The notes: a model not told the origin generated them from the letters alone. Shown: positions 4,666 to 18,502, counted from the stretch's first letter. The stretch is DNA of 32,000 nt from Pseudodesulfovibrio piezophilus C1TLV30 (GCF_000341895.1 NC_020409.1:1620001-1652000); one strand, 5' to 3'. Made by a program: numbers and translations.

Positions 4666-5091
4666 ATGAAACTATCTGCACGGTCACGCTATGCAACCAG
4701 ATTACTGCTTGATCTGGCATTGCATAATGACGACACACCGCTTCGGACAACTGTCCTTTCCGAATCTACCGGCATCACGGTCCAATTCATAGAACAGATT
4801 ATCCGGCCCCTGAAAAAAGCCGGGCTTATCAAATCAAAACGTGGAGCGACAGGCGGACACATTCTCGACAAAGATCCCAAAACAATCACCGTCGGAGAGA
4901 TCGTCCGAATCATGGAGGGAGGAATAACCCTCACTGACTGTGTTTCAGATGAGACCGCCTGTGAACGCTCTCCCACCTGCCGCACAAGACAGGTCTGGCA
5001 ACGGGCATCCGAAGTTTTGGAACAGGAATTAGACTCCATCTCCCTTGCAGACCTGATGACCCACCCTAACGACAGTATACTTCTAGATTAA
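4666..5091 (+). CDS. Rrf2-family transcriptional regulator (IscR/NsrR-like, three clustered Cys)
   Basis: MKLSARSRYATRLLLDLA..., a wHTH segment with IKSKRGATGGHIL, and a C-x6-C-x5-C cluster (DCVSDETACERSPTC). Confidence 0.9.
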   Translation: MKLSARSRYATRLLLDLALHNDDTPLRTTVLSESTGITVQFIEQIIRPLKKAGLIKSKRGATGGHILDKDPKTITVGEIVRIMEGGITLTDCVSDETACERSPTCRTRQVWQRASEVLEQELDSISLADLMTHPNDSILLD

Positions 5092-5818: not shown

Positions 5819-7438
5819 ATGTCCCACAAGATTATCCTCATAGGAGCGGACCAGCCCGCGCTTGACGCAGTGCTTTCCTACAAACGCACCACACCGGACG
5901 CTACGGCAACCGTCCTCTACCCGGAGTGCAATCCCCTGGCAGAATTTTCGTGCGTGACGCTCGATAGCTTCATGGGGAACGGAATCGACTTTCCCGAGAA
6001 CCTTCGCGCCTGTGCCATAGCCCCTGAAGACAAAACCGTCATGGTCCGAGACAACTTCACTGGCGAGGAATCTCATCTGGAATATGACACACTCATTTTC
6101 GCCACAGGTTCCGCCCCGGCTCCCCTTGATGTCCCTGGCAGTTTTCTCAGCGGGATTCGTCGAGTGGGAGACTATAACGATGCGACACGGCTGACAGCTG
6201 CCGAAGGAACCAACGTGGTTATTGGGGATGGCCTGAATCTGCTTCTCGCCATTGCGCGATTATTGGATGATGCGGTCGGCACCATAGAAGTCATTCCATC
6301 ATCCATTCCGCAAGCCTGCAAGCCTTTGGGCGACGCCATGACCGCCATGGTCCTGCATCATCTGACCCAAAAAGGTGTCATCATACACACCGGGGAAACC
6401 CTCAAGGCAATAGAAGGAACGAACCGGGCAAACCGTGTGTTGACCGACAAAAGAACCATTGAAGCCGCACGAATCATCAATGCGACATCCAATATTCCTG
6501 TCACCTGTATGGTTAAGGACGCGGGGCTCGACCTCGACACAACCGGCCATATTCTGGTGGACGATAACCTCAAGGCAGCCGATTCCATCTATGCCTGTGG
6601 CGGCTGTGCCTCTTTTATCAGCCCGGCCTGCGCCAAACCTATTCCCGGAGCCTCTGTCAAATCGACGGAACCAAGGCAGTCCCGCACCCTGGCAGCATCT
6701 TTGGCGGGCACGTCACAGCCCTTCCACGCGCCTGTCTGTGCTTACTCTATCCCGATGGGTGATATGACCGTCGCTGGCGCGGGGCTTTCCATGGAAGGCG
6801 CAAAAGAATGCGGGTTCACCCCCATGTCTGCCATGGTTGTTCAGTTTGACCGGGCCCATTTCATGCCCGAAGCGAGTCTGATGACTCTGGAACTGGTTTT
6901 TGATGCCCAAACCCGCCGCGTCGTCGGCATCCAGGGACTCGGGCAGTCAGGCGACGCCCTTGCCGGACGCATCAGCGCTGTTTCCGCCCTGCTCGCTTCA
7001 CACCCCACAGTGGAAGATATAGCCAATCTTGAAGTCGCATATTCGCCTCCATTCGCTTCAGCCATGGACATCCTGAATACCGCAGGCAACGTGGCCGAGA
7101 ACATCCTGTCCGGTTCCAACGAGGGCATCGACCCTCTCGAATTCGACACTCTTTGGCAAAACCGAGAATCCAACGAATATTTTTTTCTGGACTGCCGCGA
7201 ATTCGGCAATGCGGAACCCTTCCTGGAGCGGCACCCGCTGCACTGGAACACCATTCCGCAGGGTGAGATAGCCCGCCGTGTAGCCGAGGTTCCAAGAGAT
7301 AAAAAAGTCATCCTCATCTGCAACAGCGGTGCTCGCTCATACGAGGCTCAGGTGTGCCTCAAGGCTGCCGGAATAGAGGATGTCGTCAATGTTGACGGCG
7401 GTATGGTCGCCATCAAGCAATCCGGGGTCGAGATCTAA
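5819..7438 (+). CDS. CoA-disulfide reductase/NADH oxidase-fold protein with a C-terminal rhodanese domain; the dinucleotide-binding motifs are degenerate
   Basis: 539 aa with AGGAA 5 nt before the ATG. It keeps YDTLIFATGSAP and the dimerisation region of the pyridine nucleotide-disulfide oxidoreductase fold. The C-terminal rhodanese carries the active-site loop ILICNSGARS. The N-terminal GxGxxG is replaced by IGADQPA, the second Rossmann motif by IGDGLNL, and the YAxGD motif by YACGGC. Confidence 0.85.
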   Translation: MSHKIILIGADQPALDAVLSYKRTTPDATATVLYPECNPLAEFSCVTLDSFMGNGIDFPENLRACAIAPEDKTVMVRDNFTGEESHLEYDTLIFATGSAPAPLDVPGSFLSGIRRVGDYNDATRLTAAEGTNVVIGDGLNLLLAIARLLDDAVGTIEVIPSSIPQACKPLGDAMTAMVLHHLTQKGVIIHTGETLKAIEGTNRANRVLTDKRTIEAARIINATSNIPVTCMVKDAGLDLDTTGHILVDDNLKAADSIYACGGCASFISPACAKPIPGASVKSTEPRQSRTLAASLAGTSQPFHAPVCAYSIPMGDMTVAGAGLSMEGAKECGFTPMSAMVVQFDRAHFMPEASLMTLELVFDAQTRRVVGIQGLGQSGDALAGRISAVSALLASHPTVEDIANLEVAYSPPFASAMDILNTAGNVAENILSGSNEGIDPLEFDTLWQNRESNEYFFLDCREFGNAEPFLERHPLHWNTIPQGEIARRVAEVPRDKKVILICNSGARSYEAQVCLKAAGIEDVVNVDGGMVAIKQSGVEI

Positions 7439-7526
7439 TCTCCACCCACTCAGCACTGGTCATTATCCCTCTGCGGAGACAGGGGGTTGGAAAATGTATC
7501 TTTAATAACTTTTAAGGAGTCCTAGC

Positions 7527-8762
7527 ATGAAAAAACTGGTTATTCTCGGCGCTGGCGCCGGCGGAACCATGGTCGCGACCAAGATGCGCGAGAAACTGGA
7601 TCCGAAGGAATGGAAAATCACTGTCATCGACCGTGACTGGAAGCATCACTACCAGGCAGGTTGGCTGTTCGTTCCCTTCGGTATCTACAGCCTGGAAGAC
7701 TGCGAAAAACCCAAGGCCGATTTCCTGCACGGCGTCGATTTTGTCCAGGACACCATCGTCAATGTCGATCCCGAGAAGAAGCTCGTCACCTGCCAGGGCG
7801 GCAAGTACGATTACGACTGGATTGTCGTGGCAACTGGCTGTCGCATCATGCCCGACGAAATCGACGGTATGCTCGATGATTGGCGCGGCGATATCCATGA
7901 CTTCTATACCCCTGACGGAGCCATGGCCCTGTTCAAGAAATGGAAGTACATGAAAGAAGGCCGCATTGTTCTGAACATTGCCGAAATGCCCATCAAGTGC
8001 CCTGTGGCACCTTTGGAATTTGTCTACCTGGCCGACTGGTTCTTTACCGTCAACGGTGTGCGCGAAAACATCGAGATCGACCTGGTCACCCCGCTGACCG
8101 GAGCCTTCACCAAGCCTGTGGCCGCCGAGATTCTGGGCCGCGTTTGTGAAGAAAAGAATATCAACGTCATCCCGAACTTCACCATCGACAACGTCAATGT
8201 CGGCAAGAAAGTCATCGAGGACGTCATGGGAGAAGAAGTACCCTACGACCTGCTCGTCGCCATTCCGCCGAACTTCGGCGCCCAGTGCCTGATGGACTCC
8301 GAGATCACTGATCCCATGGGATACATGGCAACAGACAAGCACACCCTGAAGTCCTCCCAGTTCGAAAACATGTACATCATCGGTGACGCAACCAACTGCC
8401 CGACATCCAAAGCCGGTTCCGTCGCTCACTACGAAGCCGACATCGTCGTGGACAACATGCTTCGTGAGATGGACGGCGAAGAAGCCCGTCCCGAATTCGA
8501 CGGTCACTCCACCTGTTTCATCGTTTCCGGTTACGAAAAAGCCTACCTCATCGACTTCAACTACGATGTCGAGCCGCTGCCGGGTAAATACCCATTCCCC
8601 GGTCTCGGACCCTTTGCCCTGCTCGGTGAGAACCACCAGAACTACTGGGGCAAGATGATGTTCAAGTGGGCCTATTTCAACCTGATGCTGAAAGGTCACG
8701 AGCTGCCGCTGGAATCCCAGATGTTCATGGCTGGTAAGATGCGCCACGTGGCCGGAAAATAA
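7527..8762 (+). CDS. Sulfide:quinone oxidoreductase-like FAD-dependent oxidoreductase
   Basis: 411 aa with AAGGAG as RBS. It has an intact ILGAGAGG FAD motif, SQR-family-like Cys contexts (ATGC, IKCPVAPLEF, HSTCFIV) and IIGDATNCPTSKAG. Confidence 0.8.
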   Translation: MKKLVILGAGAGGTMVATKMREKLDPKEWKITVIDRDWKHHYQAGWLFVPFGIYSLEDCEKPKADFLHGVDFVQDTIVNVDPEKKLVTCQGGKYDYDWIVVATGCRIMPDEIDGMLDDWRGDIHDFYTPDGAMALFKKWKYMKEGRIVLNIAEMPIKCPVAPLEFVYLADWFFTVNGVRENIEIDLVTPLTGAFTKPVAAEILGRVCEEKNINVIPNFTIDNVNVGKKVIEDVMGEEVPYDLLVAIPPNFGAQCLMDSEITDPMGYMATDKHTLKSSQFENMYIIGDATNCPTSKAGSVAHYEADIVVDNMLREMDGEEARPEFDGHSTCFIVSGYEKAYLIDFNYDVEPLPGKYPFPGLGPFALLGENHQNYWGKMMFKWAYFNLMLKGHELPLESQMFMAGKMRHVAGK

Positions 8763-8780
8763 CCAGGCGGAGGCACTATC

Positions 8781-9488
8781 ATGAGTAATGAAGCAATAAT
8801 GGAACGCCTCGACAAGATCGAGGAAAATATCGCCTTCCTGACGGAACGGGCGAAAGCGACCGAAGAACTCAAGAATGACCTGACGCCGATCATGCATGAC
8901 GGTTTCAAGGTTCTCATGAGCGAATTCGGAAGCATCGAGCATGGCTTCCAGCTTGAAGATCTCACCGAGTTCATCAAGAAGATGATGGTCAGCATGAAAA
9001 ACATGACCTACATGCTCGACAAGATGGAAGACATCATCGACCTGTGGAAGACCATTGCTCCGCTGCTGCAGCACTCCGTGCCCCAGCTCATCGAGTACAT
9101 GGATACCCTGGAGCAGAAAGGCGTCTTTGACACCTACCGCGCCATGATCGAGATCCGTGCCAAAGTCGCTGAGACCTATGGCGTGGAAAACATTCGCAAC
9201 ATGGGAGACTCTTTTGTCTTCCTGGTCGGAATGCTCGAAAAGCTGGGCGATCCCAAAGTTCGCATGATGATCGAAGGCGCTGCCAATGCCTTCTCCGAAC
9301 TGGATCTGACCACGGTCAAACCCACCGGGCCTCTGGGCATGGTCGGCGGCATGGCATCCAAAGACGCCAAGCGTGGCCTGGGCATTATGCTCGAAATGAC
9401 CAAGACCCTCGGAAAAATTGGCCTGGAAGTCCCCAAAGTGGACGCTCTGGCCAATCAGAAAGCCGCAGCCAAAGCTGCCGCCAAATAG
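8781..9488 (+). CDS. DUF1641-type helical protein (the usual partner of SQR-like oxidoreductases)
   Basis: 235 aa with GGAGG as RBS, 18 nt after the SQR-like gene. It is helical and Met/Glu/Lys-rich, with a C-terminal region that matches my memory of DUF1641. The family assignment is from recollection. Confidence 0.6.
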   Translation: MSNEAIMERLDKIEENIAFLTERAKATEELKNDLTPIMHDGFKVLMSEFGSIEHGFQLEDLTEFIKKMMVSMKNMTYMLDKMEDIIDLWKTIAPLLQHSVPQLIEYMDTLEQKGVFDTYRAMIEIRAKVAETYGVENIRNMGDSFVFLVGMLEKLGDPKVRMMIEGAANAFSELDLTTVKPTGPLGMVGGMASKDAKRGLGIMLEMTKTLGKIGLEVPKVDALANQKAAAKAAAK

Positions 9489-9795
9489 CATCACTGACGT
9501 GGGCGGTCCTTCCAGGATCGCCCACGATATAAAAATACGCCCTTAATTGTTCTGGCTATTGCCAGGACTCCGCGACGGCCCGTGTCGCCCCTTGCTTGCA
9601 AGGCCCAAGGCATGGAGCTGGCCTTGGCGACACGGGCCCCTCACGGTGTATGGACACCATCGCAAAAAAGAACTGATACGAGGAAGTCCCAGGGCAAACT
9701 TCATCCCAGCTCCTTTCCATGAAAATCGAGTCACGGCCCGGTTCTCAAGGCTCAGTTGACCCCTCAGCCGAGGCTCCAAATATACGAGGTTTGAT

Positions 9796-10149
9796 ATGAC
9801 CAAGAAAATCCTGATTATCGATGATGATCCCGCTATCGTGGAGTTCCTGGAAGACCTTCTTCAAGACGCCGGTTTTGCCACGGTCACAGCCTTCAACGGC
9901 GGCGAAGGGCTGGATAAGCTCACCTCTGAATCACCCGACCTTATCACCCTGGATATGGATATGCCTGAAAAGGGAGGTGTCCTCTTCTATGCGACCCTGC
10001 GCAAGGACGAAGCCACCAGGGATATCCCGGTCGTGATCGTCAGCGGCGTCGGCCCGCGTCCTCCGGCTGTCGGCAAAGATGTCCCCGTCATCACCAAGCC
10101 CATTGATACCGATGCACTGATGGCCTGCATAACCACTCAGCTCGGCTAA
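9796..10149 (+). CDS. Single-domain response regulator (CheY-like receiver)
   Basis: 117 aa: KILIIDDD, phospho-acceptor context LITLDMDMP, VVIVSG and ITKP. Confidence 0.9.
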   Translation: MTKKILIIDDDPAIVEFLEDLLQDAGFATVTAFNGGEGLDKLTSESPDLITLDMDMPEKGGVLFYATLRKDEATRDIPVVIVSGVGPRPPAVGKDVPVITKPIDTDALMACITTQLG

Positions 10150-10254
10150 TGACTTTTCCCAGGGAAGGGGCAGGTTTCCTGCCTGAATAGGGTCTGCGCG
10201 CGGGGGGGGACGTCCTCCCGCGCGCGGTTCTCAAAACACACTCCAGGCTCTGCC

Positions 10255-12237
10255 ATGACTGAAGCTCCGCTCTATGCTGCCTCACACCCGTTTTCGGTCT
10301 TGCTCGTTGATGACGAGGAAGATATCCGCGAACTGCTTGGCATGCTCCTCAACGACCTCGGCTACACCGTTCAAACGGCGAAAAATGGTCAAGCTGCTCT
10401 CGAACTTTTCCGAACGGTCCAGACCACGGAAAGGCCGGATATCATCCTGACGGATATCAAGATGCCCGGCATGGACGGCATCGAACTCCTTCGCACCATC
10501 AAGGCTGAAGCACCCGAAATCGAAGTGATCATGATCTCCGGTCATGGTGACATGCAACTCGCCATCGAATCCCTCAAATTTCAAGCCGCTGACTTCATCA
10601 CCAAACCTATTGACGACGACATTCTGGCTATTGCCCTGAACAAAGTGACGGAAAAGCTCTCTCTACGCCGCCAGATCAAGGAACATACAGAAAATCTCGA
10701 ACGACTTGTCGAGGAAAAGTCCGCGCGCGTTGTGGAACTGGAACGTCAGACCGCGGCCGAACAGATTGTGGACGGATTATCCAGTGCCATGTCCATCATT
10801 TCCGATGACGTGGATGACTCCGGTGTTTTCAATGAGCTTCCCTGTTTCATTTCCATCCACTCCTCGGACCTCAAAGTCATCACAGCCAATGGTTTGTATG
10901 AACAACGCTTTGGCGACAGAACAGGCGAATCCAGCCGGTCCATATACACCTCTCATACAGGTCAGGGCAGTTGTCCTGCTTATGAAGCTGTCGCCACCCG
11001 CCTCGGCGGACGAAGCACAGCCACGCTCATGGGACTCGATGGCGCGGAAATTCCAGCCGTTGTTTATACCGCTCCCATTACCGGGAATGATGGCAAAGTC
11101 TCTTTGGTCCTGGAGGTGGCCGTGGATGTTTCCGAAGTCAATCGCCTCCAAACGGCTTTGACCGCTACCCAGCATAAATACGAACGCCTTTTTGATCAGG
11201 TCCCGTGCTACATAACAGTCCAGGATCAAAATATGCGCATTGTCGAAGCCAATGCCCGCTTTCGTGAAGACTTCGGTTTTGACCGCGGTCCCAATTGCCA
11301 CCATGCTTACAAGAATCTCAACGACGTGTGCGACGGATGCCCCGTGCAAAAGACTTTTTCCGACGGTCTCCCCCATCAACGGGAAACAGTGGTGACATCC
11401 AAAAACGGCACACAGATCGATATCCTGGTCTGGACAGCGCCCCTTCGCAATGAGCATGGGGAAATCGAACACGTCCTCGAAGTCTCGACCAATATTTCCA
11501 AAGTCCGGGCCTTGCAGAACCAATTAACCAGCCTCGGCATGATGCTTGGCTCCATGTCTCACGGCGTCAAAGGATTGCTGACTGCCATAGACGGTGGCAT
11601 CTATCGAGTCGAATCCGGCCTCAGCAAAAACGACATGGATCGCGTGGACAAAGGATGGAAGGTCGTCAAACACCGCATAGGCCATATGAAAAAAATGGTC
11701 ATGGATATCCTCTATTACGCCAAATCGCGCGAATTGGAATTGTCCCGGACGACACTGGGAGACTATGCCACGGATCTTGCGGACCTGATCGCGCCCAAAG
11801 CCGCAGACCATGACATTTCGTTTGTCCGTCGCTTTTCCCAGCCAACAGTCACATTCGAAGCTGACGTCGCTGCCCTTTCATCCGCATTGGTCAATTTCCT
11901 GGAGAATGCCATGGATGCCTGCGTCTTCGACCGCTCCACCACCCGACACTGTGTCACCTTCACCGTTTCCGCAGATTCCAAAACAGTCCACTTCGAAATC
12001 ACTGACAACGGCATAGGCATGGATCGCGAGACCCGCGAAAACATGTTTACCCTGTTCTTTTCCTCCAAGGGCGCAAACGGCACCGGTATAGGACTGTTCA
12101 TATCAAATCAGGTCATCGCCAGGCACAACGGGACCATTGATGTGGACTCCAGCGTGGGCAAAGGGACACATTTTCACATCCGCATTCCAATGACTCAAGC
12201 GGGCTGTGAGAACTGTATGGAGAGCGTGACCGGCTGA
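10255..12237 (+). CDS. Hybrid sensor kinase: N-terminal receiver, two PAS-like modules, HisKA and HATPase
   Basis: 660 aa. The REC domain has VLLVDDEEDIRE...ILTDIKMPGMDG. The H-box is GSMSHGVKGLL. N/G boxes are ENAMDA, DNGIGM and GTGIGL. The second PAS carries C-x10-C-x2-C. Confidence 0.9.
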   Translation: MTEAPLYAASHPFSVLLVDDEEDIRELLGMLLNDLGYTVQTAKNGQAALELFRTVQTTERPDIILTDIKMPGMDGIELLRTIKAEAPEIEVIMISGHGDMQLAIESLKFQAADFITKPIDDDILAIALNKVTEKLSLRRQIKEHTENLERLVEEKSARVVELERQTAAEQIVDGLSSAMSIISDDVDDSGVFNELPCFISIHSSDLKVITANGLYEQRFGDRTGESSRSIYTSHTGQGSCPAYEAVATRLGGRSTATLMGLDGAEIPAVVYTAPITGNDGKVSLVLEVAVDVSEVNRLQTALTATQHKYERLFDQVPCYITVQDQNMRIVEANARFREDFGFDRGPNCHHAYKNLNDVCDGCPVQKTFSDGLPHQRETVVTSKNGTQIDILVWTAPLRNEHGEIEHVLEVSTNISKVRALQNQLTSLGMMLGSMSHGVKGLLTAIDGGIYRVESGLSKNDMDRVDKGWKVVKHRIGHMKKMVMDILYYAKSRELELSRTTLGDYATDLADLIAPKAADHDISFVRRFSQPTVTFEADVAALSSALVNFLENAMDACVFDRSTTRHCVTFTVSADSKTVHFEITDNGIGMDRETRENMFTLFFSSKGANGTGIGLFISNQVIARHNGTIDVDSSVGKGTHFHIRIPMTQAGCENCMESVTG

Positions 12238-12282
12238 CATCCGAGGCTCGTCAGTCGGTCTGCTCCTCCACCGGAGAAAACC

Positions 12283-14604
12283 ATGTTCACCGCCTTCAGC
12301 GACTGTTTTGGGAAGCTGCAAAAGTCCCTCTCAATGAAACTTGTCATTCTGGTCATGTTTCTGACCACTCTCTCAATGACAGGCGTTTTCTTTGCCTATG
12401 CCGATAAAGAAAAAAACGATAATTTACGCAGGGCAGCCATGCGTGCCGAAGATCTCACCAAAGTCATACAAATCGGTCTTCGGTCTACCATGAACCAAAT
12501 TCCTCACAAGGCAACAGCCGAATTTCTCACCCAGATAGCCGATCTTGAGTGTATTCATTCAGTCTCCATCCACGATGCCTCGGGACTTCTGCTCTTTTCC
12601 GGGAATGACAGCAGCCCAACTCTCCTTGACTTCAAGGACATACTCACACTTTTCATTTCCCGAAATCAGATTTCTCAACCGGGACAGGAATCTCTCCAGC
12701 ATCAGGATTCTCTCATACCCAATGGAAATTCAGGGCGTTTTCTACGTCGAGTCAGTCTAATTCCCAATGAACAGGGATGTTCCACTCCCCTCTGTCATAC
12801 CGCTCAAAATGACGCCCCATTCCTTGGCTCGCTGGAACTGACCATTCCAGTCGAGAGCAATAAAAAAGTTTTCACCATACGAAAGACGCTTCCCCTCTTG
12901 GTCGCACTGATCTCGCTCACCGGTATGCTGCTGACTCTTCTCATGACAACCAAATACATGATTCACCGTCCAATGCAGCGAATACTCCGGGGCATCCGTC
13001 GAATCGCGCATGGCGACTACACCACCGTTGTTACCGTCAACCAGCATGACCAGTTCGGACTTCTTGCCGAAACCATCAACCGCATGGCTCGCAATGTCGA
13101 GACTCACCATGCGGAACTCTCCCGGCAGCGAGCACTCTACCAATCGCTCTTCGAAGGTGTTCCCTGCCTGATTACCGTTCAGGACCGGAACTATACACTC
13201 CTTCGTTTCAACCAGGCGTTTGCCGATCGATTTAACGCCCAACCGGGTGATCATTGTTACGAAGCGTACAAAGGAAGGAATCGCAAATGTGACGAATGCC
13301 CTGTCGAACGCACTTTTGCCGACGGGTTGTCACATACAACCGAAGAAATAGGCTCCTACAAGGATGGAACCCGAGCACACTGGATCGTCAACACGGCTCC
13401 CATCTATGACGAAAAGGGGACAGTCGTGGCCGCCATGGAAATGAGCCTCGACATCACACAACGAAAACGCCTCGAAGAAGACCTCAGGGCTTCGGAACAA
13501 AAATACTATGCCATCTTCAACACCATCCCCAGCGCGGTTCTCGCTATTGACGCTGCCACTCATCACATTATTGACTGCAATAAAACTGCAATATCTCTGT
13601 ATGGTTATACTAAGGGGAATTTAATCAGAAAGCCTTTTGAAAAATTGATTTCTCCTGACGAAATTGCCGCTCACAAAGATGCGTTTGCCACAACACTTTC
13701 GCTGCGCCGTACCAAGCACATTGACGCGAACAAAAAGGAATTCTGGGCCTCTGTGACTCTTTCGCGGACCCGTTTCCAGACACAAGATGTCCTTCTGACT
13801 GTGATTACCGATATCTCCGAACGAATCAGCTCAGAAGAACAACTGATCCAGGCCAGCAAAATGGCGACCCTTGGAGAAATGGCAACAGGTGTTGCCCATG
13901 AATTGAATCAACCCCTGGCTGTCCTTCAGATGATTGCCAATCTTTTTCGGCGCAAACTAAAGCACAACAAACCCATTGACGCTGAAACCGCCGGGAACAT
14001 GGCAGACAAGATTACCAACAACGTCAACCGAGCTACCAAGATAATCAACCACATGCGCGAGTTCGGGCGCAAGTCAAACCTTGAGACGGAAGAGGTCCGA
14101 CTTAACAGAGTCGTCCGCCGGGCTTTCGACCTTTTCAGCCAACAGCTCAAGCTCCATAATATCACCGTCGAATGGTATCTTGAGGAAGAGCAACCCATCA
14201 TTCATGCCGATTCCAACCGACTGGAGCAGGTCTTTATCAACATGCTGATCAATGCCCGAGATGCCATTGAAGAACGCTGCGCCAATGCCGAGTGCTCTGC
14301 TCCCGAACGCTTCATCGTCATCCGTACCCGATCCACCCGTCGTTCTGTCATAGCCGAAATCCACGATTCCGGAACCGGCATACCCAAAGAACTTCTGCCT
14401 CGTCTTTTCGAACCTTTCTTTACCACAAAAGAAGTCGGGCAAGGGACCGGCCTAGGCCTCTCCATCTCTTACGGTATCGTCACCGACTACGGTGGGACCA
14501 TTCATGTCACCTCCCCACGCTCCCATGGTTCTCGATTCACCATCACCTTTCCTCGCGCTGCCACAAGAAGCCAGAAGCAGTTAAAATCAAACACCTACCG
14601 ATAA
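12283..14604 (+). CDS. Membrane sensor histidine kinase (periplasmic domain, HAMP, two PAS, HisKA, HATPase)
   Basis: 773 aa with GGAGA as RBS. Two TM segments flank a ~170-aa periplasmic region. HAMP shows RIAHGDY. The H-box is VAHELNQPL. N/G boxes are NMLINARDA, DSGTGIP and GTGLGL. The first PAS is paralogous to the Cys-PAS of the preceding kinase. Confidence 0.9.
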   Translation: MFTAFSDCFGKLQKSLSMKLVILVMFLTTLSMTGVFFAYADKEKNDNLRRAAMRAEDLTKVIQIGLRSTMNQIPHKATAEFLTQIADLECIHSVSIHDASGLLLFSGNDSSPTLLDFKDILTLFISRNQISQPGQESLQHQDSLIPNGNSGRFLRRVSLIPNEQGCSTPLCHTAQNDAPFLGSLELTIPVESNKKVFTIRKTLPLLVALISLTGMLLTLLMTTKYMIHRPMQRILRGIRRIAHGDYTTVVTVNQHDQFGLLAETINRMARNVETHHAELSRQRALYQSLFEGVPCLITVQDRNYTLLRFNQAFADRFNAQPGDHCYEAYKGRNRKCDECPVERTFADGLSHTTEEIGSYKDGTRAHWIVNTAPIYDEKGTVVAAMEMSLDITQRKRLEEDLRASEQKYYAIFNTIPSAVLAIDAATHHIIDCNKTAISLYGYTKGNLIRKPFEKLISPDEIAAHKDAFATTLSLRRTKHIDANKKEFWASVTLSRTRFQTQDVLLTVITDISERISSEEQLIQASKMATLGEMATGVAHELNQPLAVLQMIANLFRRKLKHNKPIDAETAGNMADKITNNVNRATKIINHMREFGRKSNLETEEVRLNRVVRRAFDLFSQQLKLHNITVEWYLEEEQPIIHADSNRLEQVFINMLINARDAIEERCANAECSAPERFIVIRTRSTRRSVIAEIHDSGTGIPKELLPRLFEPFFTTKEVGQGTGLGLSISYGIVTDYGGTIHVTSPRSHGSRFTITFPRAATRSQKQLKSNTYR

Positions 14605-14843: not shown

Positions 14844-14881
14844 TAAAAAAACAGACCCAAAGCATGCGAATGCAATGGGCC
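14844..14881 (-). terminator. Rho-independent terminator downstream of the extended rhodanese ORF
   Basis: The minus strand reads GGCCCA-TTGCATTCGCATGCTT-TGGGTC (with a nested GCAT/ATGC stem), followed by TGTTTTTTTA. It lies 52 nt after the TGA at 14933..14935. I saw no comparable terminator after the internal TGA at 15059. Confidence 0.65.
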
Positions 14882-14932
14882 TGAAAGAGTCGAAGGGGAG
14901 CAGGCGGAAAACCGCTTTCACGGACCTTCCGA

Positions 14933-15355
14933 TCATTTCATATCAGTGGGGTATCCTGCGTCCAACCAATCGTTCCATCCCCCCTTGAGAGCATAGACCT
15001 TGCTGAATCCCTTTTTCATGAGTGCCTGTGCCACCCGAGCACTGGTATACTCATTGGGTCAGGCGCAATACAGAACAAACGTCTTGTCCCGATCCATAGA
15101 GGTAGCCCATGCATCAACATCATTATACGGCTTTCTGACACTGTTCCTGATCATTTTTTCACTTCCGTCAAAATCCTTTCCACGGCGAACATCAATGATA
15201 ATGACTTCATCTGAATCCAGGCGTGACAACAACTCTGTTCCGGTCATACGCGGAACTCTATCCCCGACGAAACCAGGCCCAGCCGAAACCGAAATCCCCC
15301 ACACAAGACAAAGAAGGGCTGCTCCAATGGCTAACCCTCTTGTTATTCTTTTCAT
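14933..15355 (-). CDS. Periplasmic rhodanese-domain protein with an in-frame UGA (candidate selenocysteine) in the active-site loop
   Basis: ATG 15355 is preceded by GGAGG at a 5-nt spacing. The signal peptide is MKRITRGLAIGAALLCLVWGISVSA. The ORF track stops at TGA 15059..15061 after ...KTFVLYCA. The same frame continues PNEYTSARVAQALMKKGFSKVYALKGGWNDWLDAGYPTDMK to a stop at 14933. That is the expected second half of a rhodanese domain. Confidence 0.7.
15018..15054 (-). other. SECIS-like stem-loop immediately 3' of the in-frame UGA
   Basis: The RNA reads UGA-CCCA-[AUGAGU]-AUA-[CCAGUGCU]-CGGGU-[GGCACAGG]-C-[ACUCAU]. The lower stem is 6 bp and the upper stem 8 pairs (one A.A mismatch, one U.G). 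The apical loop is G-rich and begins 21 nt after the UGA. Confidence 0.55.
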
Positions 15356-15477
15356 CTCTCCCTCCAAAGTATACAGACTCTGCCCGCCTCAAACCAAAGA
15401 CGCGCACTCAAAGATATTAAACCTGAAACGGGATCATAGCTCAAGACAAGAAATTCTCTTGAACCCAGGCTTCCCCC

Positions 15478-15511
15478 CAAAAAAAGCTCCGCCTGCCAGA
15501 CAGACGGAGCT
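15478..15511 (-). terminator. Rho-independent terminator of purM
   Basis: The minus strand reads AGCTCCG-loop(13)-CGGAGCT followed by TTTTTTT, 24 nt after the purM stop. Confidence 0.75.
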
Positions 15512-18425: not shown

Positions 18426-18502
18426 CGGGGCATGGCGCAGTCTGGTAGCGCGCCTGCTTTGGGAGCAGGATGCCGGGAGTTCAAATCTCTCTGCCCCGAC
18501 CA
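18426..18502 (+). tRNA. tRNA-Pro: tRNA-Pro (anticodon UGG)
   Basis: I folded the cloverleaf by hand. The acceptor is CGGGGCA/TGCCCCG and the D stem is GCGC/GCGC. The anticodon stem CCTGC/GCAGG carries the loop TTTGGGA (UGG, G37). The T arm is GGGAG-TTCAAAT-CTCTC. The discriminator is A and the CCA is encoded. Total length 77 nt. Confidence 0.95.

What the first reader, a model, noticed from the sequence alone, without database searches (positions are those of the whole stretch)
14933..15355. Candidate selenocysteine-containing periplasmic rhodanese (Cys-Ala-Sec active-site loop) truncated by ORF calling
- Seen: the 102-aa track ORF ends at TGA 15059..15061 directly after ...VLYCA. The same frame continues without a break as PNEYTSARVAQALMKKGFSKVYALKGGWNDWLDAGYPTDMK. 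That is the missing C-terminal half of a rhodanese domain.
- Seen: four nt after the TGA a two-tier hairpin begins (15018..15054). Its G-rich apical loop CGGGU lies 21 nt from the UGA, within the geometry described for bacterial SECIS elements.
- Seen: the only good terminator (14844..14881) follows the extended ORF, not the TGA.
- Knowledge: from memory, rhodanese relatives carry YC-x-C-P-N-E here, so the TGA would sit where homologues have Cys. Rhodanese-like sulfurtransferases have been listed among rare prokaryotic selenoprotein families. Sulfate reducers commonly use Sec.
- Inference: this is a C-x-U redox or selenotransfer centre in an exported sulfurtransferase.
- Alternative: a TGC/TGT-to-TGA nonsense mutation, making this a pseudogene.
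Basis: partly seen in the sequence, partly recalled or inferred. Interest (0 to 1): 0.85.

Follow-up and report, generated by a model that had tools for sequence, protein, structure and literature searches.

The report
Known CxU rhodanese selenoprotein, mis-annotated
The gene is a real selenocysteine-containing, exported rhodanese whose in-frame TGA was read as a stop in the deposited annotation, but it belongs to a selenoprotein family predicted in 2005 that already has a curated NCBI model, so it is a correct call and not a discovery.

Summary
On the minus strand an ORF starting at ATG 15355 runs to ...VLYCA, then TGA 15061..15059. The same frame continues for 41 codons to a second TGA at 14935..14933. 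The Pfam Rhodanese domain (aa 40-132) spans the internal TGA.

The selenoprotein reading is strongly supported.
- All 83 related loci examined carry TGA at this column: the window, 2 Logan contigs and the best 80 genome loci.
- The downstream frame shows coding periodicity.
- A 5-bp stem with a 5-nt loop lies 21 nt after the UGA. It is paired in 99.8% of cells, has compensatory changes, has an invariant loop G, and meets all four published bacterial SECIS criteria.
- Cys-containing relatives exist.
- Desulfovibrio (now Pseudodesulfovibrio) piezophilus C1TLV30 is listed as a Sec-utilizing organism.

It is not new. The protein scores 156.9 bits (cutoff 115) on NCBIfam NF041203 'rhodanese_LYCAU, rhodanese-related (seleno)protein'. 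Reviews list this as rhodanese form 3 with a CxU motif, first predicted by Zhang & Gladyshev in 2005.

- Only the upper tier of the hairpin is conserved.
- The hairpin is not thermodynamically exceptional on its own.
- The nearly invariant Cys97, not Sec99, is probably the canonical rhodanese cysteine.

Function remains untested.

The parts
14933..15355 (-). Complete selenoprotein CDS: 140 codons (ATG 15355 to Lys140) plus terminal TGA 14935..14933. Member of the rhodanese_LYCAU (CxU) family.
   Evidence: Sequence and ORFs. NCBIfam NF041203 156.9 bits against a cutoff of 115. Pfam Rhodanese aa 40-132.
15358..15365 (-). Shine-Dalgarno-like GGAGGGAG, ending 2 nt (AG) upstream of ATG 15355.
   Evidence: Read from the sequence. 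The database protein P0001 starts at this ATG.
15281..15355 (-). Probable Sec-type signal peptide: MKRITRGLAIGAALLCLVWGISVSA, with inferred cleavage after VSA. No twin-arginine motif and no lipobox.
   Evidence: Read from the translation. The deposited name is 'exported protein of unknown function'. Relatives also have hydrophobic N-termini. No signal-peptide predictor was run.
14960..15238 (-). Rhodanese domain (aa 40-132), interrupted by the Sec codon.
   Evidence: Pfam PF00581, E = 6.7e-14, profile positions 3-101 of 102. PDB relatives include 6mxv, YnjE and GlpE.
15065..15067 (-). TGC codon of Cys97, the nearly invariant Cys of the C-x-U motif and probably the canonical rhodanese catalytic Cys.
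   Evidence: TGC or TGT in 81 of 83 loci and TGA in 2. Cys in 88 of 95 representatives. Relatives with a 2-residue shorter loop keep this Cys at canonical spacing. In the AF2 model of P0004 it is the first residue after the strand.
15059..15061 (-). In-frame TGA, read as selenocysteine 99.
   Evidence: TGA in 83 of 83 loci at this column. Cys in homologues.
15028..15042 (-). Conserved SECIS core: 5-bp stem GUGCU/GGCAC with loop CGGGU. The invariant loop G is at 15036. The loop starts 21 nt after the UGA.
   Evidence: RNAalifold consensus. 99.8% of cells paired, 17 cells with compensatory change, 0 of 500 shuffles as good. All five pairs present in 81 of 82 Sec forms against 25 of 53 Cys forms. 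Third-codon-position entropy falls from 1.52 to 0.63 bits inside the hairpin.
15018..15054 (-). Extended hairpin in this sequence (6-bp lower stem, CC/GG, upper stem). The lower tier is not conserved across the family.
   Evidence: Fold at -14 kcal/mol. Lower helix paired in only 58% of cells.
14845..14883 (-). Intrinsic terminator (nested GC-rich hairpin plus U7) after the extended ORF.
   Evidence: Fold with z = -2.64.
15488..15504 (-). Terminator-like site after purM. It suggests the rhodanese gene is its own transcription unit.
   Evidence: Pattern scan. purM identified by AIRS and AIRS_C domains.

Best explanation
The gene at 15355..14933 (minus strand) encodes a 140-residue exported single-domain rhodanese of the 'LYCAU' family, in which UGA 15061..15059 is decoded as selenocysteine.

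Decoding (inferred from the standard bacterial mechanism). SelB carrying Sec-tRNA(Sec) binds the small stem-loop 15042..15028, which lies inside the coding sequence 21 nt downstream of the UGA, and delivers Sec to the ribosome. The stem is made from the codons for Ser-Ala and Val-Ala-Gln of the conserved TSARVAQ helix. The loop carries the invariant G.

Location (inferred). The product is exported through the Sec translocon via an N-terminal signal peptide.

Active site. The active-site loop C97-A-U99-P-N-E is two residues longer than in GlpE-type rhodaneses.

Chemistry (inferred, untested). Cys97 is the canonical persulfide-forming cysteine. Sec99, two residues on, acts as a neighbouring nucleophile or resolving residue and can form a Cys-S-Se-Sec bond. 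This would make the protein a redox-active carrier or reductase of sulfane sulfur (or selenium) in the periplasm, not a plain thiosulfate:cyanide sulfurtransferase.
For: Shown:
- TGA at the same column in 83 of 83 loci from at least six phyla or orders.
- 41 or 42 in-frame codons follow the TGA in 82 of 83 loci. Terminal stops are TAA 29, TAG 29 and TGA 25.
- Coding periodicity after the TGA: entropy 0.85, 0.79 and 1.52 bits at codon positions 1, 2 and 3.
- The Rhodanese domain spans the TGA.
- The protein passes NF041203 at 156.9 bits against a cutoff of 115.
- The SECIS core is conserved. Compensatory changes are U-A to C-G at pair 30-42 (14 sequences) and G-C to C-G at pair 29-43 (3 sequences, where Ser is TCN and the Gln codon becomes G-initial). 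Loop column 35 is G in 82 of 82 sequences although the amino acid there varies among R, S, G and W.
- All four published bSECIS criteria are met (criteria from PMC13188914). These are a 5-nt loop, a 5-bp stem, G then G/U at loop positions 2-3, 21-nt spacing, and MFE -14 kcal/mol.
- Cys-form relatives lack the constraint (25 of 53 against 81 of 82).
- The organism is listed as Sec-utilizing, with 7 selenoproteins.
- This gene's own terminal stop is also TGA, so TGA is an ordinary stop in this genome and only the SECIS-flanked one is recoded.

For Cys97 as the canonical Cys.
Against: - There is no experimental evidence for Sec insertion in any member of this family; reviews list it as 'predicted'.
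- The hairpin is not thermodynamically exceptional by itself.
- Three of the five stem pairs are largely fixed by the conserved amino acids S-A...A-Q, so only pairs 30-42, 33-39 and the rare 29-43 swaps are independent evidence.
- No Rfam family matched, so no curated RNA model was available to test the hairpin against.
- Loci were retrieved through the downstream peptide VYALKGGW. Conservation of that motif is therefore by construction, and the 276 lower-scoring relatives were not seen.
- HMMER's best PDB alignment (6mxv, gapless) puts Sec99, not Cys97, on the catalytic Cys, so the roles of the two residues are unresolved.
- The AF2 model was built from only 4 sequences and averages pLDDT about 73 over the residue block that contains the loop.
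Confidence: 0.93

Rival explanations
1. Pseudogene: a TGC/TGT-to-TGA nonsense mutation truncates a once Cys-containing rhodanese. The 98-residue product is non-functional and the downstream frame is decaying.
For: The deposited annotation calls a 98-aa protein. Cys-containing homologues exist. The hairpin is not exceptional thermodynamically.
Against: The same TGA is present in 83 of 83 loci across distant lineages. The downstream frame stays open for 41-42 codons in 82 of 83 and shows third-position periodicity. Synonymous sites in the hairpin are frozen and covary.
Confidence: 0.01
2. UGA is read through, but not as Sec. It could be read as Trp, Cys or Gly by near-cognate or suppressor decoding, or Cys could be inserted when selenium is limiting. 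The full-length protein would then exist without selenium.
For: A gene caller translated the same codon as Trp under genetic code 4 in P0003/L002. From general knowledge, Cys misincorporation at Sec codons is known when selenium is scarce.
Against: TGA also terminates this gene and 25 of 83 orthologues, so it is a normal stop in these genomes. The conserved hairpin fits the SelB-type SECIS model. The host is Sec-utilizing. The aligned residue in homologues is Cys or Ser, not Trp; of the 4 'W' representatives, the one checked at DNA level (P0003) is a code-4 artefact.
Confidence: 0.04
3. Two separate genes: a 98-aa exported protein, and a small downstream ORF starting at GTG 15034 (33 aa).
For: the ORF listing reports both pieces as ORFs.
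Against: Neither piece is a domain on its own. The single Rhodanese profile runs across the junction. The 33-aa ORF has no ribosome-binding site of its own that was noted, and its start is not conserved.
Confidence: 0.01
4. Same selenoprotein, different chemistry. Sec99 itself sits at the canonical catalytic position, forming a perselenide or Se-S adduct, and Cys97 is the auxiliary residue at the end of the beta-strand.
For: The gapless HMMER alignment to both domains of 6mxv puts residue 99 on the Cys of CGGGFRS and CGSGFRS. The spacing from U99 to the conserved G116 and G125-G126 equals that of 6mxv. By my recollection of its sequence it also equals GlpE.
Against: Cys97 is the conserved residue (88 of 95) while column 99 varies among U, C, S, T and D. 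Relatives lacking two loop residues keep Cys97 at C-x5-S spacing. The AF2 model ends the strand at Tyr, just before the first Cys. Alignments to 3gk5 and YnjE put the first Cys on the catalytic Cys.
Confidence: 0.3

Closest known systems
NCBIfam NF041203 'rhodanese_LYCAU', rhodanese-related (seleno)protein. [quoted passage not shown] First predicted by Zhang & Gladyshev 2005 (bSECISearch).
   Same: Passes the curated cutoff (156.9 against 115 bits). Has the eponymous L-Y-C-A-U motif, the single rhodanese domain, one Sec and an in-frame SECIS. Occurs in Deltaproteobacteria/Desulfobacterota.
   Different: Nothing of substance. The deposited P. piezophilus annotation truncates it at the UGA and calls it an 'exported protein of unknown function'.
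UxU double-Sec form of the rhodanese-related sulfurtransferase selenoprotein (Olavius algarvensis delta-symbionts; Zhang & Gladyshev 2007, PMC1976440).
   Same: Same family and same loop. Loci L025 and L040 here have TGA at both positions. L045 and L074 come from Olavius-associated Delta 3 and Delta 1.
   Different: The window gene has Cys (TGC) at the first position, so it carries a single Sec.
E. coli fdhF-type bacterial SECIS and the bSECIS consensus model.
   Same: The hairpin lies inside the ORF right after the UGA. It has a small apical loop with G then G/U, 16-37 nt spacing and a short upper stem sufficient as the conserved core (criteria in PMC13188914; met).
   Different: The sequence is unrelated. 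No conserved bulged U or conserved lower stem was detected. The stem is constrained by the codons of a conserved protein helix.
GlpE/PspE-type single-domain rhodaneses, and the Wolinella periplasmic polysulfide-sulfur transferase Sud (PDB 1gmx, 1qxn).
   Same: Rhodanese fold with an active-site Cys at the end of the central strand. Like PspE and Sud, it is probably periplasmic (weak sequence matches).
   Different: The active-site loop is two residues longer and carries a second chalcogen residue (Sec or Cys) two positions after the Cys. There is no loop Arg. The motif is C-A-U-P-N-E instead of C-x-x-G-x-R.
TsoB, rhodanese/DsbD fusion-like selenoprotein (NF045694).
   Same: A Sec-containing rhodanese-type domain (weak hit at 24.2 bits).
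   Different: Far below the cutoff of 805. TsoB is a 572-position, two-Sec (UxxxxU) fusion protein.

Membership tests
NCBIfam NF041203 rhodanese_LYCAU (CxU rhodanese selenoprotein) | Whole-protein HMM score at or above the curated cutoff (115 bits). | tested here: met
   156.9 bits, E = 1.8e-46, profile positions 16-126 of 126. Sec was entered as Cys.
NCBIfam NF041203 rhodanese_LYCAU (CxU rhodanese selenoprotein) | L-Y-C-A-U motif, with U encoded by in-frame TGA. | tested here: met
   ...FVLYCA-TGA-PNE at 15061..15059. Same column TGA in 83 of 83 loci.
NCBIfam NF041203 rhodanese_LYCAU (CxU rhodanese selenoprotein) | Rhodanese homology domain. | tested here: met
   PF00581 at 52.6 bits against a cutoff of 22.2. 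PDB rhodanese relatives found.
Bacterial selenoprotein gene (SelB/SECIS-dependent) | bSECIS model: 3-9 nt loop, 4-16 bp upper stem, G in the first two loop positions, 16-37 nt from UGA to loop, MFE <= -7.5 kcal/mol. | tested here: met
   Loop CGGGU (5 nt), 5-bp stem, 21-nt spacing, -14 kcal/mol. Criteria quoted from PMC13188914. The bSECISearch program itself was not run.
Bacterial selenoprotein gene (SelB/SECIS-dependent) | Hairpin conserved with covariation in orthologues. | tested here: met
   99.8% of cells paired; 2 pairs and 17 cells with double changes; 0 of 500 shuffles as good. Contrast with Cys forms.
Bacterial selenoprotein gene (SelB/SECIS-dependent) | Cys-containing homologues aligned at the Sec position. 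| tested here: met
   P0004 reads YCACPAE. 26 of 95 representatives have Cys. 53 distinct metagenomic YCACP forms found.
Bacterial selenoprotein gene (SelB/SECIS-dependent) | Host genome encodes selA, selB, selC and selD. | not testable with these tools
Literature only: D. piezophilus C1TLV30 is listed among Sec-utilizing organisms (SelD, SelA, SelB) with 7 selenoproteins. No sel gene or tRNA-Sec lies in the window.
Bacterial selenoprotein gene (SelB/SECIS-dependent) | Selenium actually incorporated (75Se labelling or mass spectrometry). | not testable with these tools
Reviews list the family as predicted only.
Rfam SECIS families | Covariance-model match. | tested here: not met
   No SECIS family hit even at E <= 10 on 14980..15080. 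Bacterial SECIS elements are not described by one sequence family, so this says little.
Classical thiosulfate sulfurtransferase (GlpE/PspE type) | Six-residue active-site loop C-x-x-x-x-x followed by [S/T/R]. | tested here: not met
   The loop counted from Cys97 is two residues longer: C-A-U-P-N-E-Y-T-S. It is canonical length only if counted from Sec99.

The most novel reading that the evidence does not exclude
The most novel reading still open has two parts.

(a) The family's SECIS may have arisen from a pre-existing 'proto-SECIS'. The codons of the conserved helix S-A-R-V-A-Q already fold into the same 5-bp hairpin, with a G at loop position 2, in about half of the Cys-containing relatives (25 of 53). 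A single TGY-to-TGA change 21 nt upstream could then have been decoded by SelB at once. That would be a concrete route for Cys-to-Sec conversion.

(b) The protein may be the periplasmic partner of an uncharacterised APC-type permease, which sits immediately upstream on the same strand in 29 of 80 family loci. That would point to a role in handling a sulfur or selenium compound for uptake, not in generic redox defence.
Probability: 0.25. Interest if true: 0.45.

Novelty: already known. Interest (0 to 1): 0.2.

Why it matters
For this genome it matters as an annotation fix. The deposited record shows a 98-aa 'exported protein of unknown function' where there is a 140-aa selenoprotein.

More broadly, the family is widespread in sulfate-reducing and sulfur-disproportionating Desulfobacterota, Nitrospirota and NC10. 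It appears to be exported, and it has never been characterised biochemically. An exported Sec-containing rhodanese with a C-x-U loop is a reasonable target for learning what selenium adds to sulfane-sulfur chemistry outside the cytoplasm.

None of this is new knowledge. The family, its motif and even the U-x-U variant are in the literature and in NCBIfam.

Tried and rejected
- Rfam at gathering threshold on the whole window, and at E <= 10 on the hairpin, gave nothing relevant.
- Single-sequence folding statistics do not single out the hairpin.
- The search for homologous proteins (word-indexed) was insensitive. It returned 4 hits for the window protein. It returned only self for P0004, because I set max_evalue to 1e-10 against a 5.8-billion-sequence database; that search was effectively wasted.
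I therefore could not check whether a full-length Sec-containing RefSeq protein is on record.
- I suspected that ORF 5819..7438 (Pyr_redox_2 + Rhodanese) was the C-terminal part of a second selenoprotein, because Pfam matched only from profile position 63. The upstream frame is closed and the ORF has its own N-terminus, so this was rejected.
- An attempt to build a canonical-rhodanese set from the representative hits for hhalign found none with a CxxxxR[ST] loop. I used the hmmalign view instead.
- The AF2 model of the Cys homologue was built from only 4 sequences. Its loop confidence is moderate, so it does not settle which residue is catalytic.
- Antisense and overlapping-frame ORF clusters in the neighbour analysis (16, 12 and 11 loci) are artefacts of the conserved rhodanese gene itself.

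Full report
**1. What is in the sequence**

On the minus strand an ORF begins at ATG 15355, preceded by GGAGGGAG at 15365..15358. The ORF listing extends it to a TTG at 15367. It reads MKRITRGLAIGAALLCLVWGISVSAGPG...DKTFVLYCA and meets TGA at 15061..15059. The same frame then continues as PNEYTSARVAQALMKKGFSKVYALKGGWNDWLDAGYPTDMK to a second TGA at 14935..14933.

With the internal TGA read as a sense codon, the 140-residue product matches Pfam Rhodanese over residues 40-132, covering profile positions 3-101 of 102 (E = 6.7e-14). The domain is therefore split by the TGA, and neither half is a domain on its own.

A nested GC-rich hairpin followed by U7 lies at about 14883..14845, after the extended ORF (z = -2.64). 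The pattern scanner found no terminator between the two TGAs. It found one at 15504..15488, after the upstream gene. That upstream gene is purM (AIRS and AIRS_C domains). Downstream lies a convergent PAS/HAMP histidine kinase.

The window comes from Pseudodesulfovibrio (formerly Desulfovibrio) piezophilus C1TLV30. The deposited 98-aa protein, 'exported protein of unknown function', is 100% identical to the N-terminal piece.

**2. Is the TGA conserved?**

- A word-indexed protein search found only four relatives. One (P0002) also ends at ...VLYCA. One (P0003) shows Trp at the site. One (P0004) has Cys, reading VVLYCACPAEATSARVAQ.
- The DNA behind P0002 (L001) has TGA followed by an open frame. 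The 'Trp' of P0003 (L002) is also a TGA that a gene caller had translated with another genetic code.
- A scan of one genome per species gave 356 relatives. In every one of the best 80 loci the aligned codon is TGA, which makes 83 of 83 with the window and the two contigs. These loci come from Desulfobacterota/Thermodesulfobacteriota, Nitrospirota, Methylomirabilota (NC10), Anaerolineales, Dehalococcoidales and Acidobacteriota. They include two Pseudodesulfovibrio MAGs.
- The preceding Cys codon is TGC in 56 loci, TGT in 25 and TGA in 2.
- The frame after the TGA stays open for 41 codons in 72 loci, 42 in 10 and 46 in 1. The final stops are TAA 29, TAG 29 and TGA 25.
- Outside the hairpin, column entropy after the TGA is 0.85, 0.79 and 1.52 bits at codon positions 1, 2 and 3. 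This is the signature of a translated sequence under purifying selection.
- One caveat applies. The loci were recovered through the downstream peptide VYALKGGW, so conservation of that motif is by construction. The TGA itself and the other 33 downstream codons were not selected for.
- An independent profile search of 1.84 billion representative proteins gave 95 single-domain relatives. Of these, 38 end exactly at ...LYCA (Sec forms truncated by gene callers), 26 have Cys at the column, 10 Ser, 4 'W', 3 Thr and 2 Asp.

**3. The SECIS element**

There is a 6-bp lower stem, CC/GG with a bulged A, a 5-bp upper stem GUGCU/GGCAC and the loop CGGGU, at -14 kcal/mol. That is unremarkable against shuffles (z = -1.10).

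The comparative evidence is what counts. In the ungapped alignment of 83 sequences, RNAalifold retains only the upper stem-loop. It spans alignment columns 29-33 and 39-43, which are window 15042..15028.
- 99.8% of cells are paired.
- Pair 30-42 switches U-A to C-G in 14 sequences. These are synonymous third positions of the Ser and Ala codons.
- Pair 29-43 flips G-C to C-G in the three sequences that use TCN for Ser. In those, the 'Gln' codon becomes G-initial (Glu, Val or Ala).
- 0 of 500 shuffles reach the observed pairing or covariation score.
- Loop column 35 (window 15036) is G in 82 of 82 distinct sequences, although the codon it sits in encodes Arg, Ser, Gly or Trp. Column 36 is G or U in all.
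- Third-position entropy drops from 1.52 bits outside the hairpin to 0.63 bits inside it.

As a control I fetched Cys-containing relatives from metagenomes using a YCACPxExTSA pattern. In 53 distinct sequences all five pairs form in only 25, against 81 of 82 for Sec forms. Pair 33-39 is paired in 58%, against 99%. TCN-Ser sequences keep C-C mismatches.

The element meets all four constraints of the published bacterial SECIS model (quoted): a 3-9 nt loop, a 4-16 bp upper stem, G in the first two loop positions usually followed by G or U, 16-37 nt spacing (here 21), and MFE <= -7.5 kcal/mol. Rfam has no matching family.

**4. Sec machinery**

No sel gene or tRNA-Sec lies in the window; the only tRNA is tRNA-Pro at 18426..18502. 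I could not read the rest of the genome.

Peng et al. 2016 define Sec-utilizing organisms by SelD, SelA and SelB. Their Table S2 lists 'Desulfovibrio piezophilus C1TLV30' with 7 known selenoproteins. This gene's own terminal stop is TGA, so TGA is an ordinary stop here and only the SECIS-flanked one would be recoded.

**5. What it is, compared with what is known**

The protein scores 156.9 bits (cutoff 115) on NCBIfam NF041203 'rhodanese_LYCAU', an equivalog model named 'rhodanese-related (seleno)protein'.
[quoted passage not shown] It credits Zhang & Gladyshev 2005, the bSECISearch paper.
- The 2007 Olavius symbiont paper counted 8 rhodanese-related sulfurtransferase selenoprotein genes. It already reported a U-x-U form. 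I saw that form again in L025 and L040.

The family, the motif and the variant are therefore all known. What is wrong is only the deposited annotation of this genome.

**6. How it probably works**

Decoding follows the standard bacterial route (inference from the established mechanism). SelB carrying Sec-tRNA(Sec) binds the stem-loop 21 nt downstream while the ribosome sits on the UGA.

The N-terminus has basic residues, a hydrophobic core and VSA before Gly26. It has no twin-arginine motif and no lipobox. It looks like a Sec-pathway signal peptide, which would make this an exported selenoprotein. This was read by eye and no predictor was available.

Which of the two loop residues occupies the canonical catalytic position is not settled.

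Evidence for Cys97:
- It is conserved in 88 of 95 representatives, while column 99 varies.
- Relatives whose loop is two residues shorter (LYC--QGEHTS, LYCA--KGLTS) keep this Cys at the canonical C-x5-S spacing.
- An AlphaFold model of the Cys homologue P0004 ends the central strand at Tyr, just before the first Cys. That model used only 4 sequences and averages pLDDT about 73 over the residue block that contains the loop.
- Alignments to 3gk5 and YnjE agree.

Evidence for Sec99:
- HMMER's best PDB alignment, to both domains of 6mxv, is gapless and puts residue 99 on the catalytic Cys.

I favour Cys97 as the persulfide-forming residue (about 0.65). On this view Sec99 sits at position 3 of an eight-residue loop. 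It would act as a neighbouring nucleophile that can resolve a Cys persulfide, or form a Cys-S-Se-Sec bond. That would make the protein a redox-active sulfane-sulfur (or selenium) carrier or reductase outside the cytoplasm. This chemistry is inference only.

One contextual hint comes from the related loci. In 29 of 80 of them an APC-type permease sits immediately upstream on the same strand (PF13520, 27.5 bits against a cutoff of 27; no NCBIfam hit). It is not present in this window.

**7. Rivals**

- A pseudogene is excluded by the 83 of 83 conservation and the coding signal downstream.
- Two separate genes are excluded because the domain spans the junction.
- Non-Sec read-through is unlikely. 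TGA is used as a stop in these genomes, the hairpin fits the SelB model, and homologues have Cys or Ser rather than Trp.

**8. Verdict**

The finding is already known. Interest is low. The value is an annotation correction, plus a clean comparative demonstration of a SECIS built from the codons of a conserved helix.

Noticed in passing
L025:3193-3267 and L040:3196-3270: In a Thermodesulfovibrionales MAG and a Thermodesulfobacteriota MAG the codon of the otherwise invariant Cys is also TGA (LY-TGA-A/T-TGA). This gives a U-x-U double-selenocysteine loop served by the same downstream hairpin. The variant was already reported for Olavius symbionts (PMC1976440).
   Followed up: partly
L079:1683-2933, with equivalents in 28 other loci (e.g. 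L005, L013, L036, L045, L072): A membrane protein of about 416 aa with a borderline AA_permease_2 (APC superfamily) match and no NCBIfam family. It sits immediately upstream of, and co-oriented with, the CxU rhodanese selenoprotein gene in 29 of 80 loci. It is absent next to the window gene. It may be a functional partner.
   Followed up: partly
L083-L162 (metagenome contigs, mostly soil): A Cys-containing sister group (YCACPNEATSARVALLLKRKGITRV...RPLEGG) forms the same 5-bp hairpin, with G at loop position 2, in 25 of 53 distinct sequences. This follows simply from the S-A-R-V-A codons in GC-rich genomes. It could be a proto-SECIS that eased Cys-to-Sec conversion.
   Followed up: partly
window 5819-7438 (+), with 4666-5091 (+): A 539-aa pyridine nucleotide-disulfide oxidoreductase (Pyr_redox_2 + Pyr_redox_dim) is fused to a C-terminal rhodanese with a canonical CNSGARS loop. 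It lies about 700 bp downstream of an Rrf2-family regulator. Its N-terminus reads IGADQPA where GxGxxG is expected. I checked for an upstream in-frame TGA and found none.
   Followed up: partly
L002:669-983 (protein P0003); also P0006, P0020, P0122: The database proteins show Trp at the Sec column. For P0003 the DNA has TGA and the stored protein does not match a table-11 translation. The gene caller evidently used a TGA=Trp code on a short contig. Such 'W' entries are hidden Sec forms.
   Followed up: partly
P0005 (2327 aa), P0007/P0008 (863 aa), P0046 (1197 aa): The top hits of the profile search include very long proteins with 6-15 tandem rhodanese-like stretches resembling this family.
   Followed up: no
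P0017, P0043, P0056, P0061: Close full-length relatives lack exactly two loop residues (LYC--QGEHTS). This restores the canonical six-residue rhodanese loop. The CxU/CxC forms therefore carry a two-residue loop insertion.
   Followed up: partly
window 7512-9494 (-), against 7527-8762 (+) and 8781-9488 (+): A 660-aa minus-strand ORF with no Pfam hit overlaps two long plus-strand ORFs. Which strand is coding was not resolved.
   Followed up: no
window 9796-14604 (+): A run of signalling genes sits just downstream of, and convergent with, the selenoprotein gene. It comprises a stand-alone response regulator, a hybrid receiver-PAS histidine kinase (660 aa) and a HAMP-PAS histidine kinase (773 aa).
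   Followed up: no
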